A stretch of 64,000 nt of DNA from a virus (IMGVR_UViG_3300037722_000745:192001-256000); one strand, 5' to 3'; positions 10,291 to 54,976 are shown, counted from the stretch's first letter. The notes: a model not told the origin generated them from the letters alone. Translations and numbers: made by a program.

Positions 10291-10551
10291 TTATCCTTCG
10301 TCTTCAAAATCCTCATCCGACAGGTCACCGCGCCACGGATTCTGCCGCCAAGCATCGAGGTTCTCACCGGCCCGCTTTATCACCTCGGCAGGGTCATCCC
10401 CTTGTTCGCGGATCAGGGCTAGGGCGTCTTCCCATCCCTGTTCTGCCGCAGCATCGAAATCAAAGTGGTCCGTACTAGGGGCCCTCTCCGAAGAGCCAGG
10501 CGAGAAGTCCTGAGGGGGAATCTGGACGATAGCGAGCACCCGGTGATCCAT
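10291..10551 (-). CDS. Hypothetical protein
   Basis: 86-aa acidic ORF in operon. Confidence 0.55.
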   Translation of the reverse strand: MDHRVLAIVQIPPQDFSPGSSERAPSTDHFDFDAAAEQGWEDALALIREQGDDPAEVIKRAGENLDAWRQNPWRGDLSDEDFEDEG

Positions 10552-10630
10552 TGTCTCGCTCTTTAATAGGTGGCAAGCTACCCTTGAAAGCCTTTAATAG
10601 ACCGCAAACCCTTCGTTGTCAACGATCCAT

Positions 10631-10951
10631 TCAATGGGTTGTTTTCGTGGCTTTCAGCCGCGGGACATCCTCAGGATCAAGCTGCCCAGACTCTACAAGG
10701 CGAGCCAAGATCTCAACCGATTTCAAAGGGGTCACGATAAAACGGACTTCCTCCCCCTGATACTGCTCGAGGATGGTCTGAACGTCCAAAAAATCGAAAG
10801 ACCCATCGGCCTGCTGGATCCGTAGGACCATGCGACCATTCATCGGATCCAGCTCTACAACACCCTCGATAAGGGCTCCCAGATCCAAACCCTCAACGGA
10901 CGGGACAGACGCCATTTGCACACTCTTCAATCTCGACATCTCCACCGTCAT
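10631..10951 (-). CDS. Hypothetical protein
   Basis: 106-aa ORF overlapping the nrdJ end. Confidence 0.55.
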   Translation of the reverse strand: MTVEMSRLKSVQMASVPSVEGLDLGALIEGVVELDPMNGRMVLRIQQADGSFDFLDVQTILEQYQGEEVRFIVTPLKSVEILARLVESGQLDPEDVPRLKATKTTH

Positions 10952-23971: not shown

Positions 23972-25375
23972 TCAATCCGCGCCCTTGAGGTTCGAGACCG
24001 GGTAAAGCCGGTGTTCAACTCTCGCAATCCCCTCCGCCTCTAGAACGGCGAGAACCGCGTCGAGATCCTTGTAGACGTGCCCGCACTCATCAAGCGGCGT
24101 CTTCTTGTGATTGCCCACGATCCCCTCGATCTGGACGCCGCCGAAGGTTCGCTTGACGCTCGCCATCTCGTTGTCGATTCGAGCCTGCTTGTGCCCCAGC
24201 CGGCGCTTCGCTTCTGAGCGGCCTAAGATCCGACCCGAACCGTGGTTCACCGAGCAGGCGGACTTGTAGGCCCCATCTCCCGGGAACAGGATCGCAGCAC
24301 CTTCGTACATCGAGCCCGGAATGAGGCACGGGTGACCCGTAGTCTCCCACGCCGTCCCTACCAGGTCAGGATGCCCTGCCGGAAAGGCTCGGGTTGCTCC
24401 CTTCCGATGCACGAAGCCCCGCTTGTGGGTCCCGTCGGGCAGCACAAGGGTCTCTTCCTGCACCAGGTTGTGGCTGATCTCGTAGTAGACTTCGAGGTCA
24501 GCGTTGAACACTTCCTGCGTCGCCTCTTGAACCCCCACCACGATCTGATGACGGTTCGCGACCGCGAAGTTGGCCGCCGAGTTGTGGTAAGCCCAGTACT
24601 CTCGACCAAGAGGCTCATCTATTCGAAGCCAGGAATCCTCTCGACGGTTCTTCGGTAACCCCCGGAGAGCGGCCCCTTCGTAGAAGAAGTGGTTCGCCGT
24701 CTGCCAACCGTAGCCCCGCGACCCACAGTGGACCATCACCCAAACCGACCCGTCATCTCGATCGACTTGCATCTCGATGAAGTGGTTGCCGCCACCCACG
24801 CTACCGAGCTGGTCGGACACCTTCGAGTAGGCTTTCTCGATGTGACTTAGATCCAACGTCTCCGGGATCGGGATGTACCGCCGCTCACAGAGCGCCTCGT
24901 TGATCCCCAAAGACTTGGCCCCATATCGAAGCACCTCGTCGACCTGACGAGAGCCCAGCCGCCTCATGAGGGCAGGCCGCTCGGACCCTACGCCGGTCGC
25001 CACCCGCTTCTCGACTTCCTCGACCCACTGCTGACGCTTGTGCCGACTCCGAACCGCCTTGGCTCCAAGGTTCACTTTCATGCAAAGAGCCCCGCACGAG
25101 ATGTCGTAGCCCGAGCCGCCCTGGATGATCGTGTCTTCAGTCACGATGACCGAGCCGACCGGCACGCCGTATCCCCTGTGGCAATCCGGCATCAGGTACG
25201 CCCCAATGACCCCCTCGTAGGACGCCCCGTTCGCGATCTGCTGCCAGACCGACTCTTCCGACGCCGCATAAAGGTCATCCGACAAAAAGGCATGAGCCTC
25301 CACCCGCATCTGCCCAACGCGGGGCAGCACGTAGTGATTGTCGCTGACCTTCTGAGCCTGGTACTTGAAAGACAT
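23972..25375 (-). CDS. rtcB: RtcB RNA ligase
   Basis: MPDCHRGYGVPVG, GYDISCG, GSVGGGNHFIE, MVHCGSRG, SHN, HRKGATRA, NHGSGR. Confidence 0.95.
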   Translation of the reverse strand: MSFKYQAQKVSDNHYVLPRVGQMRVEAHAFLSDDLYAASEESVWQQIANGASYEGVIGAYLMPDCHRGYGVPVGSVIVTEDTIIQGGSGYDISCGALCMKVNLGAKAVRSRHKRQQWVEEVEKRVATGVGSERPALMRRLGSRQVDEVLRYGAKSLGINEALCERRYIPIPETLDLSHIEKAYSKVSDQLGSVGGGNHFIEMQVDRDDGSVWVMVHCGSRGYGWQTANHFFYEGAALRGLPKNRREDSWLRIDEPLGREYWAYHNSAANFAVANRHQIVVGVQEATQEVFNADLEVYYEISHNLVQEETLVLPDGTHKRGFVHRKGATRAFPAGHPDLVGTAWETTGHPCLIPGSMYEGAAILFPGDGAYKSACSVNHGSGRILGRSEAKRRLGHKQARIDNEMASVKRTFGGVQIEGIVGNHKKTPLDECGHVYKDLDAVLAVLEAEGIARVEHRLYPVSNLKGAD

Positions 25376-26307: not shown

Positions 26308-28464
26308 TCACTCAGCCGCGAGAGACTCCAGGGGGGTAGACGCCACTGAGGCTCTCGCGGCTTTCCGGAGGGATACACCAGTGATGGCTACCATCGCGAT
26401 ATTATAGGCAGCCACATCGATGTCCGCGTTCCCACGGTACCCGCAACAAACACATATGAAAGCTTCACGATTGACTCGGTCTCGATTGGCCTTGTCACAG
26501 TGCCCGCACTCGGGGCACGTCCGTGATGTATTATACGGATCCACTTTGATCACCCGATAGCCTCGGTGCACAGCCAAGTCGCAGAACGCTCCGAAGAGAG
26601 CGTCCATGAGCCACCGCCCTTCCTGTTTGGCTGCGAAGAAACCACCCCACCCTGACTTACGGCTCCCCTTCCCGCCTCTACGGAAGCTGTGATGAAGGTC
26701 CTCGACCGCTACGATGACCTTTCCGCACTGAGCCCGCTTCTCGGCTGTCCTAATGACGTAGTTGACGCAGTGTCGCGACAACTCCTTCTTGCGGATGGAT
26801 AGCTGGTGGTACTTCGAGCTGTTCCTTTCAGCCTCCCATTTGGCTTCGTTCAGTGCCTTGCGGGTCTCGGATGTCAGTTGAGGCCGAAAATGCTGAGCCC
26901 AGTTCACGTCCCATCTCTTGCGAATCTCGGTCTTCCGCTTTTTCCCTTTACCCTTGAAGAAGGGGAACATGTAGAGCGTGTCGTCCACACCACGTTCCTT
27001 CGCCAAGTCAGATAGAATAGAGCTTCGACTGTTCACCTTGTCCCAGGGTACTTCATCCACCGATAGCCCGAGATGGCCACACACCTGCATCTTGGCTTGC
27101 TCTGGTCCGAAGGTATCCAACGCCAACACCTCCGCTTGTTGTTCGGCGGTCAGAGAGCGTACGGCTGCTAACCGCAAATTCTCTTGGTGCTTGTCATACG
27201 CCTTACGAAACCGGAAGAAGTCCTCTACAGTCTGCTCCGGTAACGTAAAAGCCTGCAACCGTTCTACGCACTTCCCTGGACGAATCCGTAGCGCATTCGC
27301 AGCGATCAAGTTGTTGACGCCTAGATCGACACCTACGAGGCTAAACGTCTCCGTGGTGTCATCTAGCATCTTCGACACATAGGATCCCTTCACAACCTTG
27401 GCCTTGACGACCGGCACGACCCCTTGCTTATAGATCAACGTGGCGGTGTAACGTACCGGCTTGCCCGGCTTCTTCACTACACTCAACGTGGGGTCATTCG
27501 TCACCAGATTCAGAAGACTCTCAATCGTCACCGGCACCGATCGGTCTAACAATTTGCGGTACTGTGTGTTGCGGAGAAGCCCTCGGAGATCGAGAAGTGC
27601 CCAGTCATCAGCTACCCTAACGACCGCCAACAACATGTTGTCGTCGATCGCCCCACCACGTGAGCGTGCCCAAGAAGCCCGTTTCCGACGGTGCTTCTTA
27701 ACGGAAAGATTTTCTCGATCCCATGGGGGTACATACCCCGGTTGACCTTCAGGTATCTCTAGCCGATCTACACCACAAGCGGCGATGGGTGTTGACGGAT
27801 CTCGGCTATAACCCGTCACCCCAGGAATGGACCCAGGCACATAGGGCTTCAACTTCATATGCTGGTACCCAAACACGCTACAGTTGATCCCCGGGCGGTG
27901 CCGCAGATGACCTGTCTCATCGAGGGCCGTTTCAGGTTCGTCGAGTGTTAGAAGAGGTAGGCCACGTTCTGCCCGATGCTCGTTCCGCTGTTCAATCTTT
28001 GCTACCTTTTTGCTGTTGCGATTCTCAACCTTCTTGAGAACCCCCTCGTAGGTGGCCCGAGCGTTTTGGAAAATCAGGTTGAGACCTTGGACATTGAAGT
28101 ACCCGTCCGTGTCCACCCGCGTAGCCTTAAGCCAGGCCCTAAGCCCTGCTTCAGACTTCCCAGGATCCGTAGCCTTGAACTCCTCGTAACTCTGAGCATA
28201 GACGTACTTCTGGATCACCACCGACGCTTTGTAGATCGGCCACTCCTCCAAAGGCCGACTCATCGCCACGATGTTACACTTCACCGGAGGTTTGAAATTA
28301 GGCTGTGTTGTGCCCCCCTTTCCTTCAAGAAAGGCCACAGCAGCGCCTTCGCCTTTCGACTTGAGGATCCTACCAGCCTGCCTCGAGTCATGTTTTTTGA
28401 ACCGCAGCCCAGGGAAGGACTTCTTACAGAGGGCGACGAGTGGGGTTTCCTTTTTGTCTGGCAC
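26308..28464 (-). CDS. cas12j: Cas12j (CasPhi) type V effector, 718 aa
   Basis: Split RuvC (VGVDLG, VAVEDL, NADIDVAAYNIA), Zn ribbon CPECGHC..C..C, and NVQGLNLIFQNAR and C-terminal LAAE segments recalled from CasPhi-1; adjacent array; no cas1/cas2 in the window. Confidence 0.93.
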   Translation of the reverse strand: MPDKKETPLVALCKKSFPGLRFKKHDSRQAGRILKSKGEGAAVAFLEGKGGTTQPNFKPPVKCNIVAMSRPLEEWPIYKASVVIQKYVYAQSYEEFKATDPGKSEAGLRAWLKATRVDTDGYFNVQGLNLIFQNARATYEGVLKKVENRNSKKVAKIEQRNEHRAERGLPLLTLDEPETALDETGHLRHRPGINCSVFGYQHMKLKPYVPGSIPGVTGYSRDPSTPIAACGVDRLEIPEGQPGYVPPWDRENLSVKKHRRKRASWARSRGGAIDDNMLLAVVRVADDWALLDLRGLLRNTQYRKLLDRSVPVTIESLLNLVTNDPTLSVVKKPGKPVRYTATLIYKQGVVPVVKAKVVKGSYVSKMLDDTTETFSLVGVDLGVNNLIAANALRIRPGKCVERLQAFTLPEQTVEDFFRFRKAYDKHQENLRLAAVRSLTAEQQAEVLALDTFGPEQAKMQVCGHLGLSVDEVPWDKVNSRSSILSDLAKERGVDDTLYMFPFFKGKGKKRKTEIRKRWDVNWAQHFRPQLTSETRKALNEAKWEAERNSSKYHQLSIRKKELSRHCVNYVIRTAEKRAQCGKVIVAVEDLHHSFRRGGKGSRKSGWGGFFAAKQEGRWLMDALFGAFCDLAVHRGYRVIKVDPYNTSRTCPECGHCDKANRDRVNREAFICVCCGYRGNADIDVAAYNIAMVAITGVSLRKAARASVASTPLESLAAE

Positions 28465-51754: not shown

Positions 51755-52009
51755 GTCCCACTCTTGATGGAGGTGGGCTTCCGTTGTGACCGTGCGGATT
51801 TCGGAGATGACGCTGAAGCCGTCATCGGTCCCACTCTTGATGGAGGTGGGCTTCCGTTGTGACTTCGCTCCGATCGCAATCCCGCAGGATCGCGACCAGC
51901 CGTCCCACTCTTGATGGAGGTGGGCTTCCGTTGCTGCCAGGCAGGACGGCTCGAAGTGGCTAAGATGATGTTGGTCCCACTCTTGATGGAGGTGGGCTTC
52001 CGTTGCTGC
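51755..52009 (-). CRISPR. Second CRISPR array (family 2): 4 repeats, 3 spacers (36-38 nt), no adjacent cas gene
   Basis: 36-nt repeat GTCAC/GCAGC-AACGGAAGCCCACCTCCATCAAGAGTGGGAC; leader-like region 52010-52160. Confidence 0.95.
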
Positions 52010-54141: not shown

Positions 54142-54216
54142 TGGTCGGGGTGGCGGGAGTCGAACCCGCGACCTTCTGTCCCCCAGACAGACGCCCTTCC
54201 ACTGAGCTACACCCCG
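54142..54216 (-). tRNA. tRNA-Pro(GGG)
   Basis: Cloverleaf, CCA. Confidence 0.9.
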
Positions 54217-54236
54217 TTGTTTGGTTGCGGGAGCCG

Positions 54237-54264
54237 GTCTCGCTCTTTCAGGTGGCGAGCTACC
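54237..54264 (-). repeat. Degenerate solitary family-2 repeat between duplicated tRNA-fMet 3' ends
   Basis: 24/28 to the 54941 variant; 14-bp direct repeat at 54224-54237 and 54281-54294. Confidence 0.72.
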
Positions 54265-54281
54265 ACGGTTTTTCAAACCAG

Positions 54282-54353
54282 TTGCGGGAGCCGGAATCGA
54301 ACCGACGAGGCTTGGGTTATGAGCCCGAGTTGAGGGCCAACACTCTTCCCGCG
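54282..54353 (-). tRNA. Initiator tRNA-fMet(CAT)
   Basis: C1xA72 mismatch, GGG/CCC anticodon stem. Confidence 0.85.
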
Positions 54354-54354
54354 G

Positions 54355-54427
54355 TGGCCAGAGAGGGAATCGAACCCCCGACGCCTTCATCTTCAGCGAA
54401 GCGCTCTACCAACTGAGCTATCTGGCC
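54355..54427 (-). tRNA. tRNA-Phe(GAA)
   Basis: Cloverleaf. Confidence 0.9.
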
Positions 54428-54431
54428 GTTG

Positions 54432-54472
54432 TGGTGGGTCCTCTCGGGATCGAACCGAGTTCTCCGATTTTT
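54432..54472 (-). pseudogene. tRNA 3' half (from the anticodon loop to CCA) fused to a repeat
   Basis: AAAAATCGG-AGAA-CTCGG-TTCGATC-CCGAG-AGGACCC-ACCA. Confidence 0.75.
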
Positions 54473-54508
54473 GTCTCACTCTTGTAGGGGGTGAGCTTCC
54501 CTTACTCC
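54473..54508 (-). repeat. Solitary family-2 repeat variant
   Basis: gtctcactcttgtagggggtgagcttccctt; stem CTCAC/GTGAG. Confidence 0.78.
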
Positions 54509-54535
54509 CCACTGGCCTACTAGCCAACCACTCAG

Positions 54536-54895: not shown

Positions 54896-54940
54896 AGATT
54901 TATCTCGCTCTTCCGCCAGCCAAGGCATACACGCATTGCT

Positions 54941-54976
54941 GTCTCGCTCTTGAAGGAGGCGAGCTTCCTTTGCGAG
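54941..54976 (-). repeat. Solitary family-2 repeat variant
   Basis: gtctcgctcttgaaggaggcgagcttcctttgcgag, nearly identical to the copy inside the E2-like gene. Confidence 0.85.

What the first reader, a model, noticed from the sequence alone, without database searches (positions are those of the whole stretch)
54224..54294. A 43-bp insert carrying a repeat duplicates the tRNA-fMet 3' end, again at a TTC
Seen: GTTGCGGGAGCCGG occurs at 54224-54237 and 54281-54294, flanking a degenerate family-2 repeat. On the minus strand the tRNA reads GATTC|CGGCTCCCGCAAC and the repeat reads GAGAC|CGGCTCCCGCAACCA. The downstream copy carries the CCA, as in tRNA att-site duplications. The guide would match the neighbouring tRNA for only 13 nt after a TTC flank. 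Inference: family 2 also uses a TTC-type PAM, and such a short match could mean binding without cleavage (regulation) or selection against self-killing.
Basis: partly seen in the sequence, partly recalled or inferred. Interest (0 to 1): 0.7.

Follow-up and report, generated by a model that had tools for sequence, protein, structure and literature searches.

The report
CRISPR repeat inserted into tRNA end
In a huge Cas12j-carrying phage, a lone variant CRISPR-type repeat was inserted into the end of an unusual methionine tRNA gene and duplicated 14 bases of it, so the apparent guide-to-tRNA match is most simply an insertion scar and not proof of a PAM or a regulatory guide.

Summary
GTTGCGGGAGCCGG occurs exactly twice, at 54224-54237 and 54281-54294. 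The two copies flank a 43-bp insert that ends in a hairpin-GAC element. The upstream copy is the 3' end of tRNA-CAU 54281-54353(-). The downstream copy continues into CCA.

A covariance model built from the other 11 family-2 repeats recognises the insert, but only weakly (15.3 bits against 50-59 for the training repeats). It ties with one other site, 10553. That site is a sister variant, and it is also flanked by a direct duplication, of 8 nt, at a stop/start junction.

A 372-kb relative has the same odd tRNA, ending ...GCAACCG, with no hairpin and no duplicated tail. Another relative lacks this tRNA altogether. The insert is therefore derived in this lineage.

My best reading is that a solitary repeat unit was inserted with a target-site duplication. 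The 13-nt "guide" match would be a by-product of that duplication.

A TTC PAM for family 2 is not established:
- This site is a single case.
- Other family-2 self-matches have TTG and TGC flanks.
- No protospacers and no dedicated effector were found.

Regulation and homing remain possible but could not be tested here. Earlier notes of this scan had already described solitary repeats fused to tRNA tails in this same genome.

The parts
54281..54353 (-). Atypical tRNA with a CAU anticodon that looks like an initiator (C1xA72 mismatch, GGG/CCC in the anticodon stem). It has a reduced D arm and a C.A mismatch at 27:41. It ends ...CCGGCTCCCGCAAC and is followed by TGG, so no CCA is encoded.
   Evidence: Found by ARAGORN. 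No Rfam tRNA hit even at E<=1. Sequence. The homologue in G003 has the same D arm and a covarying anticodon stem.
54281..54294 (-). Upstream copy of the 14-nt duplication. It corresponds to tRNA positions 61-74 (T-stem 3' strand, acceptor 3' strand, A73, C74).
54267..54279 (-). Small hairpin GGTTTGAAAAACC in the 5' part of the insert, directly after the tRNA end.
   Evidence: MFE fold and the sequence itself
54238..54280 (-). The 43-bp insert between the two copies: TGGTTTGAAAAACCGTGGTA followed by the hairpin up to GAGA.
54237..54266 (-). Variant family-2 solitary repeat (GTGGTA-GCTCGC-CACCTGAAAGA-GCGAG-AC). Its stem and its 3' AAGAGCGAGAC are identical to canonical copies. Its 5' part and its loop have diverged.
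   Evidence: Covariance model R1: 15.3 bits, E 0.005. Pattern match with 1 mismatch. Shares GGTAGCTYGCCACCT..AAAGAGCGAGAC with the copy at 10553.
54224..54237 (-). Downstream copy of the 14-nt duplication. Its first C is also the last C of the repeat's GAC.
54217..54236 (-). The 20 nt between the repeat end and the 5' end of tRNA-Pro: CGGCTCCCGCAAC (matches the tRNA), CA (completes CCA) and AACAA. This is the would-be guide, or equivalently the displaced original tRNA tail plus its trailer.
54142..54216 (-). tRNA-Pro(GGG). RNase P cleavage at its 5' end would define the 3' end of the inter-tRNA RNA.
54355..54427 (-). tRNA-Phe, lying 1-2 nt upstream of the CAU tRNA.
51755..52009 (-). The only family-2 array: 4 repeats of 36 nt with 3 unique spacers of 36-38 nt. 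It defines the family.
10553..10590 (-). Sister variant of the repeat (GGTAGCTTGCCACCTATTAAAGAGCGAGAC). It lies in a 70-nt insert flanked by the 8-nt direct repeat AATGGATC (10624-10631 and 10545-10552), at the stop/start junction of two ORFs.

Best explanation
A variant family-2 solitary repeat unit, a CasPhi-like hairpin-GAC element, was inserted into the 3' end of an atypical but conserved CAU tRNA gene. The event duplicated 14 bp of the target.

Consequences of the insertion:
- The upstream copy now completes the tRNA, which lost its encoded CCA.
- The downstream copy is the displaced original tail, with its CCA and its old trailer.
- Because the repeat's 3' end abuts that tail, the 13-nt identity between 'guide' and neighbouring tRNA follows automatically from the duplication. 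It says nothing about a PAM.

Inferred, not shown:
- The whole tRNA cluster is transcribed as one precursor.
- RNase Z or 3' trimming at the CAU tRNA, and RNase P at tRNA-Pro, would then release a roughly 65-nt RNA. That RNA would hold the small hairpin, the repeat hairpin and a 20-nt tail, so it would resemble a crRNA.
- I consider any guiding activity unproven and, at most, non-cleaving.
- The inserting mechanism is unknown.
For: - The 14-nt duplication is exact and adjacent, and is non-random (0.03 expected per window; P about 0.004 per random site).
- Among 24 hairpin-GAC solitary repeats in the 323-kb genome, only the two of the GGTA/CCACCT sub-type have flanking duplications (14 nt here, 8 nt at 10553). 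At 10553 the duplication sits exactly on a TGA/ATG stop-start junction and recreates both the stop and the start, as an insertion would.
- G003 has the homologous tRNA (76% identity, same odd D arm, covarying anticodon stem) ending GCAAC|CGAAACC. It has no hairpin and no second tail.
- L007/L008 keep the order Glu-Glu-Phe-Pro-Gly but lack this tRNA, the insert and any family-2 repeat.
- About 52 phage Met/fMet tRNA genes carry this same tail followed by CCA; CCA was part of the search pattern, so this shows such genes are common, not how often CCA is encoded. Together with G003's GCAACC, this points to the downstream copy as the original.
- The repeat is a family member: it has the stem and 3' end, is hit by model R1, and lies on the same strand as the tRNAs, like all other copies.
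- No minus-strand promoter or terminator was found inside the cluster.
Against: - The two duplications differ in length (14 and 8 nt), and the other 22 solitary repeats have none. No single fixed-stagger transposition mechanism fits this.
- The 8-nt case alone is not significant (P 0.018 per site, about 0.4 expected among 24).
- There are no terminal inverted repeats, no conserved 5' end and no candidate transposase.
- No true empty-site allele was found. All near-identical contigs carry the insert, and the two relatives are distant.
- A perfect 14/14 identity is also what selection for a guide, or gene conversion, would maintain.
- The three family-2 self-matches all have T at position -3 (TTC, TTG, TGC), which a pure scar model does not predict.
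Confidence: 0.5

Rival explanations
1. Functional short self-guide. The unit makes a crRNA-like RNA whose first 13 nt pair with the template strand of the neighbouring tRNA gene next to TTC. A Cas12j-like effector would then bind without cutting. It would act as a roadblock or sensor, as CreA/CreR RNAs do for type I and V-A systems.
For: - The geometry is right for type V: the PAM is 5' of the protospacer on the sense strand, and the guide starts at the repeat's 3' end.
- Partial-match regulators built from degenerate repeats exist, including for Cas12a (10.1101/2023.03.10.532045; PMC8501985).
- The repeat has the same stem and G...AC frame as this phage's Cas12j repeat, and Cas12j is encoded at 26308-28464.
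- tRNA processing would trim the tail to exactly 20 nt.
- Among the self-matches, TT-flanked ones are short (13 and 8 nt), while the long one (44/45) has a TGC flank.
Against: - The adjacency of guide and target is explained by the duplication itself.
- The target is a tRNA 3' end, not a promoter.
- In family 2 the base 5' of the stem is A, where Cas12j3 contacts U-18 (PMC8298400). No family-2 effector was found.
- In Cas12j3 a hybrid longer than 12 nt already activates catalysis (PMC8298400), so 13 nt may not be safe.
- Other family-2 copies lie only 4 nt from a tRNA 5' end and cannot be guides.
- The element is absent from both relatives.
Confidence: 0.17
2. Homing cassette. The cassette consists of a replacement tRNA tail, a linker and a repeat scaffold, and it sits directly after a T-loop TTC. 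Its 20-nt guide would match the uninterrupted allele (TTC + CGGCTCCCGCAACCAAACAA) in co-infecting relatives. Cleavage there, followed by recombinational repair from this genome, would copy the cassette in. The logic is the same as for TnpB/omega-RNA and IS200/605, where the guide is the flank and the TAM lies at the empty site.
For: - The architecture is the same as the Cas12j-type units of this genome, in which a hairpin-GAC is joined to tRNA tails directly after T54-T55-C56 (earlier notes e1-5376848, e1-5376853).
- The cassette restores the tRNA it interrupts.
- The resident copy matches only 13 of 20 nt.
- The flanks TTC and TTG precede the two duplicated targets.
Against: - No empty allele is known.
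- The only other tRNA genes seen with this tail mostly have ATC or CTC where TTC is needed.
- No effector was identified, and the repeat is the most degenerate of its family.
- The 39583 unit coexists with a 44/45 match 800 nt away, so efficient cutting by family-2 guides is doubtful unless TGC is not a PAM.
Confidence: 0.13
3. Remnant of a second, tandem copy of the tRNA. The 5' 60 nt of that copy would have been replaced or deleted when a solitary repeat landed in its T arm. The same would explain the other repeat-plus-tRNA-tail junctions (54473 and the Cas12j-type units).
For: - Other repeats in the cluster are followed by tRNA tails that have no upstream duplicate.
- The cluster is full of tRNA fragments and chimeras.
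Against: - It needs more steps: a duplication, then an insertion, then a deletion that ends exactly at the repeat.
- It does not explain why identity stops exactly at C74 of copy 1.
- It does not explain the parallel 8-nt case at a protein-gene junction.
Confidence: 0.12
4. A chance 14-nt repeat lying next to an unrelated hairpin.
For: Isolated 12-15-nt matches are common genome-wide.
Against: Local 14-nt direct repeats are expected 0.03 times per window. This one starts exactly at the repeat's last base and equals the tRNA's 3' end.
Confidence: 0.02

Closest known systems
Viral solitary repeat units (SRUs), mini-arrays and RNA anti-CRISPRs (Racrs) (PMC10651486; review PMC11656645)
   Same: A lone copy of a CRISPR-type repeat in a phage genome. 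It lies away from cas genes, is co-oriented with transcription, and keeps the hairpin and the 3' end.
   Different: - Racrs mimic host repeats. This repeat family was not found as an array in 185,579 species genomes, and it has its own array in the phage.
- This copy sits inside a tRNA cluster, is flanked by a target duplication, and is followed by a tRNA tail.
crRNA-like regulators CreA/CreR/crlRNA (PMC8501985; 10.1101/2023.03.10.532045; 10.1101/2024.10.29.618823)
   Same: A degenerate repeat followed by a short sequence that matches a nearby PAM-flanked site only partially. In those systems this gives binding without cleavage.
   Different: - Those RNAs have two flanking pseudo-repeats and target promoters of cas or toxin genes.
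- Here there is one repeat, the matched site is the 3' end of a tRNA gene, and the match is explained by a duplication.
tRNA-gene attachment-site duplications of integrative elements
   Same: A direct repeat of the tRNA 3' end flanks the inserted DNA. The proximal copy completes the tRNA and the distal copy is the displaced original.
   Different: The insert is 43 bp, with no integrase and no cargo other than the repeat hairpin.
IS200/605-TnpB omega-RNA arrangement and delocalised homing crRNAs of CASTs
   Same: An RNA scaffold lies at the right edge of an inserted segment, so the adjacent host DNA becomes the guide. A T-rich motif precedes the uninterrupted target. tRNA genes are the preferred targets of CAST homing guides.
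   Different: - IS200/605 elements make no target duplication.
- No transposase is linked to this unit.
- The IS607-type TnpA/TnpB at genome 292.8-294.6 kb is unrelated to it.

Membership tests
Family-2 CRISPR repeat of this phage (array 51755-52009) | Recognised by a covariance model built from the other members | tested here: met
   R1 scores 15.3 bits, E about 0.005. This is the best non-training hit, but far below the training members (50-59 bits) and tied with the sister variant at 10553 (15.0 bits).
Family-2 CRISPR repeat of this phage (array 51755-52009) | 5-bp covarying stem plus the 3' AAGAG-stem-AC end | tested here: met
   The stem is CTCGC/GCGAG and AAGAGCGAGAC is identical to canonical copies. 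Stem covariation across the family is shown.
Family-2 CRISPR repeat of this phage (array 51755-52009) | Conserved 5' half (GCAA-N-GGAA) and CCTCC loop | tested here: not met
   The 5' half reads CCGTGGTA and the loop reads CACCTGAAAGA. Only GG.A and CC are kept.
Functional crRNA / CRISPR guide unit | A cognate effector is encoded | tested here: inconclusive
   Cas12j is present and its repeat has the same stem. No second Cas12-like protein was found apart from an IS607-type TnpB. The record is about 68% complete.
Functional crRNA / CRISPR guide unit | PAM inferred from independent protospacers | tested here: not met
   No protospacers were found for the array spacers in the phage's own genome, GenBank phages or IMG/VR. 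The self-matches have flanks TTC, TTG and TGC.
CreA/CreR-type regulatory crRNA-like RNA | Partial match to a PAM-flanked site in a cas or toxin promoter | tested here: not met
   The match (13 nt after TTC) lies in the 3' end of a tRNA gene, not in a promoter.
Transposable element / MITE with target-site duplication | Flanking direct repeat of the target | tested here: met
   14 nt here and 8 nt at the sister copy.
Transposable element / MITE with target-site duplication | Constant duplication length, conserved ends or terminal inverted repeats across copies | tested here: not met
   The lengths are 14 and 8 nt, and 22 other solitary repeats have none. Only the 3' end is conserved, and no inverted termini are visible in the sequence.
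tRNA att-site duplication by an integrative element | Integrase or recombinase within the insert | tested here: not met
   The insert is 43 bp.
Bacterial initiator tRNA | C1xA72 mismatch and three G:C pairs at the base of the anticodon stem | tested here: met
   Read from the sequence. The G003 homologue lacks both features, so the family as a whole may not be made of initiators.
Bacterial initiator tRNA | Canonical cloverleaf recognised by the Rfam tRNA model | tested here: not met
   No RF00005 hit at E<=1; only tRNA-Sec at 18.9 bits. ARAGORN accepts it.

The most novel reading that the evidence does not exclude
The unit is a CRISPR-guided homing cassette. It consists of a minimal segment (replacement tRNA tail, linker, repeat scaffold) inserted right after a T-loop TTC. 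It turns the displaced tail into a 20-nt guide against the uninterrupted allele. A type V nuclease would then cut competitors' copies, and repair would spread the cassette. This would be a Cas12-level analogue of TnpB/omega-RNA transposon retention, acting on tRNA genes.
Probability: 0.12. Interest if true: 0.85.

Novelty: new variant of a known kind. Interest (0 to 1): 0.48.

Why it matters
Solitary CRISPR repeats in phages are known, but how they reach new places is not. Here two sister copies are each bracketed by a duplication of their target. One of them lies in a tRNA gene that a relative has in uninterrupted form. This is direct sequence evidence that such repeats can arrive as small insertions.

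An insertion of this kind automatically makes the neighbouring DNA a 'guide' that matches the site next door. That matters in two ways. First, it is a caution for anyone inferring PAMs or regulatory targets from self-matches. Second, it is a possible route by which crRNA-like regulators or homing guides could arise.

The inter-tRNA position also suggests that ordinary tRNA processing could release a crRNA-like RNA. That would be a natural counterpart of engineered tRNA-gRNA arrays.

Tried and rejected
- **Searches for relatives that found nothing.** GenBank phages near-match with the locus gave nothing. IMG/VR and JGI metagenome scans with the family-2 pattern, a neighbouring protein, its alignment and a conserved trailer motif also gave nothing.
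- **Other contigs.** L001-L005 are identical to the window, so they provide no empty allele. L009 and L010 are too short to reach the site.
- **Sequencing runs.** No RNA holder was listed. Laying contigs of four runs gave only fragments of the same phage (one piece, 54201-54351, is identical) plus tRNAs of other organisms. No joint across the insert was seen.
- **Test of the 10553 site.** Relatives L016-L019 lack the downstream gene, so an empty site could not be checked there.
- **R1 hits in G001 and G003.** These score 16-19 bits, lie in coding-like context and lack the family motif. I judged them to be chance.
- **Idea that L007's 36-nt Phe-Pro spacer is a deleted remnant of this tRNA.** Rejected: it resembles the common CTGAGTGGT trailer found after other tRNAs.
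- **Idea that G003 carries a decayed hairpin and tail.** Rejected by alignment against shuffles (p 0.18 and 0.96).
- **Idea that the guide is a weapon against other phages' fMet genes.** Weakened: those genes mostly have ATC or CTC, not TTC, before the match.
- **Origin by Cas1-type integration or reverse transcription.** No Cas1 or RT gene was found in the 323 kb, though the record is incomplete.
- **Fill-in of a Cas12j staggered cut as the source of the duplications.** Overhangs are 9-11 nt in Cas12j3 (PMC8298400). The lengths are roughly compatible, but such cuts lie far from the PAM, so the idea is kept only as speculation.
- **Cas-lambda-type scaffold.** Rejected: the 5' and 3' ends of family 2 do not pair as they do in Cas-lambda2 (PMC12141684).
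- **Second covariance model including 10553.** Abandoned because MAFFT misplaced the 2-nt loop indel.
- **Plus-strand terminator-like hairpin at 54251-54264.** It is within chance expectation.

Full report
**Setting**

The window lies in a 323-kb virus record, estimated about 68% complete. It carries a Cas12j gene (26308-28464, minus strand; TNB domain). Next to that gene is an array whose repeat ends ...GATTGCTCGCTGCGGCGAGAC. Positions 32-56 kb hold 42 tRNA genes and a tmRNA, all on the minus strand.

A second repeat family, 'family 2', forms one four-repeat array at 51755-52009 (36-nt repeat GCAGCAACGGAAGCCCACCTCCATCAAGAGTGGGAC, spacers 36-38 nt). It also occurs as dispersed single copies. 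I found 12 in the window and 2 more elsewhere in the genome, plus shorter-loop and variant forms. Every copy is co-oriented with local genes. The stem covaries: C-G to U-A and A-U to G-C, with 98% of cells paired and no shuffle reaching the observed score. The stem plus the terminal AC is the same as in the Cas12j repeat. The loop is 11 nt instead of 4, and the 5' flank is GGAA instead of GATT.

**The observation**

GTTGCGGGAGCCGG occurs only at 54224-54237 and 54281-54294. On the minus strand the locus reads, in order:
- tRNA-Phe;
- tRNA-CAU, ending ...GGTTCGATTCCGGCTCCCGCAAC;
- TGGTTTGAAAAACCGTGGTA;
- GCTCGCCACCTGAAAGAGCGAGAC;
- CGGCTCCCGCAAC, then CA, then AACAA;
- tRNA-Pro.

The duplication is exactly 14 nt and its first C is shared with the repeat's GAC. 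The insert is 43 bp. The downstream copy completes CCA. Local direct repeats of this length are expected 0.03 times per window; all the others found are CRISPR arrays or one tandem repeat.

**Is the insert a family-2 repeat?**

I built a covariance model from the other 11 repeats. With filters off, it finds 54237-54266 as the best non-training hit (15.3 bits, E about 0.005, rough calibration). The training copies score 50-59 bits.

The next hit, 10553-10590 (15.0 bits), is not noise. It reads GGTAGCTTGCCACCTATTAAAGAGCGAGAC, against GGTAGCTCGCCACCTGAAAGAGCGAGAC here. The copy at 54237 therefore belongs to a sub-type. It is not merely a unique wreck.

**A second flanked insertion**

I scanned all 24 hairpin-GAC solitary units of the genome for a duplication of the bases just after GAC within 140 nt upstream. 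Only these two sub-type copies have one: 14 nt here and 8 nt (AATGGATC) at 10553.

At 10553 the upstream copy begins with the A of the stop codon of ORF 10631-10951. The downstream copy contains the ATG of ORF 10291-10551. Removing the 70-nt insert and one copy gives ...CATTGAATGGATCACC..., an ordinary abutting stop/start.

On its own the 8-nt repeat is not significant (P 0.018 per random site, about 0.4 expected in 24). The 14-nt repeat is significant (P 0.004, and that figure is inflated by arrays). The placement of the 8-nt repeat is what makes it persuasive.

**The tRNA**

The tRNA has C1xA72 and GGG/CCC, like bacterial initiators. It also has a three-pair D stem, no U8 and a C.A mismatch at 27:41. 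Rfam's tRNA model does not find it even at E<=1.

It is nonetheless conserved. The 372-kb IMG/VR relative G003 has a 76%-identical homologue with the same unusual D arm (GGGAAGRGTGTTGGCYCYCAAC). Its anticodon stem covaries at four pairs and keeps the 27:41 mismatch. The RNA is therefore under selection, although the G003 version lacks the initiator marks.

About 15 of the 42 tRNA genes here encode CCA. About 20 have discriminator-C-T trailers (CTGG, CTAG, CTGAG). A CCA-less end is therefore common in this phage. No CCA-adding enzyme was found in the record.

**Polarity of the event**

- G003's homologue ends ...CTCCCGCAAC|CGAAACC. It has no hairpin and no second tail, and local alignments to our trailer or to its own tail are no better than shuffles.
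- G003 has no Cas12j and no convincing family-2 repeat.
- L007/L008, a Logan relative with 72% identity in the neighbouring protein, keep Tyr-Lys-Lys-Asn-Trp-Thr-Glu-Glu-Phe-Pro-Gly. They have only 36 nt between Phe and Pro: no CAU tRNA, no insert and no family-2 repeat.
- Fifty-eight IMG/VR contigs carry TCCGGCTCCCGCAACCA. About 52 of them are genuine phage Met/fMet tRNA genes. CCA was part of the search pattern, so this shows only that such CCA-encoding genes are common.

The CC-bearing downstream copy is therefore the ancestral end, and the insert plus duplication is derived in this lineage. Contigs from five other samples are identical across the site, so no empty allele was seen.

**What it most likely is**

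The simplest account is an insertion of a solitary repeat unit with duplication of 14 bp of target. Formally this cannot be told apart from a 57-nt cassette that brings its own copy of the tRNA tail and lands after C61. Either way, the sequence after the repeat must equal the sequence just before the insert. The '13-nt guide match after TTC' follows from that.

The TTC is T59-T60-C61 of this tRNA and is also present in G003. Most other phage tRNA genes with the same tail have ATC or CTC there.

The two other family-2 self-matches have flanks TTG (8 nt) and TGC (44 of 45 nt, 39583 against 40423). All three have T at position -3. With three cases chosen after the fact, this is a hint of a T-rich preference and nothing more. 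It does not single out TTC.

No protospacers were found for the three array spacers. Beyond Cas12j there is no candidate effector. The only other TNB-domain protein is a split IS607-type TnpB with a serine recombinase. The repeat family is not found as an array in 185,579 species genomes, only as eight single chance hits, and it is absent from IMG/VR. No Cas1 or reverse transcriptase is present.

**How it may work (inference)**

No minus-strand promoter or terminator signal interrupts the cluster, so the spacer is probably part of a polycistronic tRNA precursor. Established tRNA maturation would then act: 3' processing after the discriminator of a CCA-less tRNA, and RNase P at the next tRNA. 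That would free about 65 nt holding a small hairpin (GGUUUGAAAAACC), the repeat hairpin and exactly 20 nt of tail.

If a Cas12j-like protein binds it, the RNA is sense to the tRNA. It could pair only with the template DNA strand, with TTC in the PAM position. Published thresholds differ. Cas12j3 is activated by hybrids longer than 12 nt, uses a TTN PAM and leaves 9-11-nt overhangs (PMC8298400). Cas-lambda2 needs at least 16 nt (PMC12141684). So 13 nt is borderline.

Other family-2 copies sit only 4 nt (48876, 51755) or 14 nt (51356) before a tRNA 5' end, which leaves no usable guide. This argues that guiding is not the general role of these units.

**Rivals**

I considered four rivals:
- a CreR/CreA-like short guide, which has precedents including V-A (10.1101/2023.03.10.532045; PMC8501985);
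- a homing cassette aimed at the uninterrupted allele, with the same logic as TnpB/omega-RNA. This is consistent with the Cas12j-type units of this genome, in which hairpin-GAC abuts tRNA tails right after T54-T55-C56;
- a truncated second tRNA copy;
- chance.

None of the first three is excluded. Each needs either an empty allele or RNA and protein data.

**Verdict**

The structural part of the interpretation (an insert that duplicates the tRNA end, with the distal CCA-bearing copy as the original) is supported and now has outgroup evidence. The PAM inference and the functional readings are not supported by anything beyond the duplication itself.

This is a new variant of a known kind: a phage solitary CRISPR repeat, here caught as a small insertion with a target duplication inside a tRNA gene. 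Earlier notes of this scan had already described repeat-to-tRNA-tail junctions and dispersed solitary repeats in this same genome. The flanking-duplication pattern and the outgroup comparison are added here.

Noticed in passing
window 10545-10631 (-): A 70-nt insert ending in a variant family-2 repeat lies between two ORFs. It is bracketed by the 8-nt direct repeat AATGGATC. The upstream copy supplies the A of the TGA stop and leaves a mini-ORF, ATGGATCGTTGA. The downstream copy holds the real ATG. It looks like an insertion into an abutting stop/start.
   Followed up: partly
G000:C1:291395-294592 (about 36 kb beyond the window's end; L011): An IS607-type element: a serine recombinase with a MerR HTH (203 aa), followed by a TnpB split into an 82-aa HTH_OrfB piece and a 282-aa OrfB_IS605+TNB piece. 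This is a second RNA-guided-nuclease relative in the phage, possibly frameshifted.
   Followed up: partly
window 3664-54976, all canonical family-2 copies: The 11-nt loop of family 2 always contains CCTCC (CACCTCCATCAAGAG / CGCCTCCTTTAAGAG). This resembles the anti-Shine-Dalgarno end of 16S rRNA (recalled, not checked). The complementary strand reads AAGGAGG. The two GGTA/CCACCT variants have lost it.
   Followed up: no
window 32455-55829 (-); L007 3880-4180: About 20 tRNA genes lack CCA and share trailers that start C-T-(G/A)-G, such as CTGGTG, CTAGTG and CTGAGTGGT. CACTGAGTGGT follows two different tRNAs in the relative L007 and one tRNA here. This may be a conserved 3'-processing or trailer element.
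   Followed up: no
window 54897-54964 (-): The family-2 copy at 54941 is followed after 26 nt by GGAAGAGCGAGAT. This looks like a repeat that has lost its 5' stem strand and its loop, so the unit may be a decayed repeat-spacer-repeat. Upstream of it lies a tRNA fragment (TTTAATCAGACGGTGTGG) whose counterpart in L007 still has a full T arm.
   Followed up: partly
window 54428-54534 (-): The family-2 copy at 54473 is followed by a complete T arm, an acceptor 3' strand and CCA (CTCGGTTCGATCCCGAGAGGACCCACCA). This matches no tRNA of the phage by more than 15 nt. L007 has a T-arm-like hairpin at the aligned place but no repeat.
   Followed up: partly
window 23972-25375 (-): An RtcB RNA ligase gene (Pfam E 7e-87) lies directly beside the Cas12j array, in a genome full of tRNA fragments and tRNA-like RNAs.
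   Followed up: no
L028 1654-1729 (-) (G003): In the relative G003 the odd CAU tRNA sits next to a second, canonical-looking Met tRNA with GGG/CCC in its anticodon stem. The odd tRNA family may therefore not be the initiator in these phages.
   Followed up: no
G000:C1:49886-49935 (+), outside the window: A short-loop family-2 variant (GGAAGCCCACCTCCCTTGAGTGGGAC) lies immediately before an RBS and an ATG. This is another solitary repeat in an mRNA leader.
   Followed up: no
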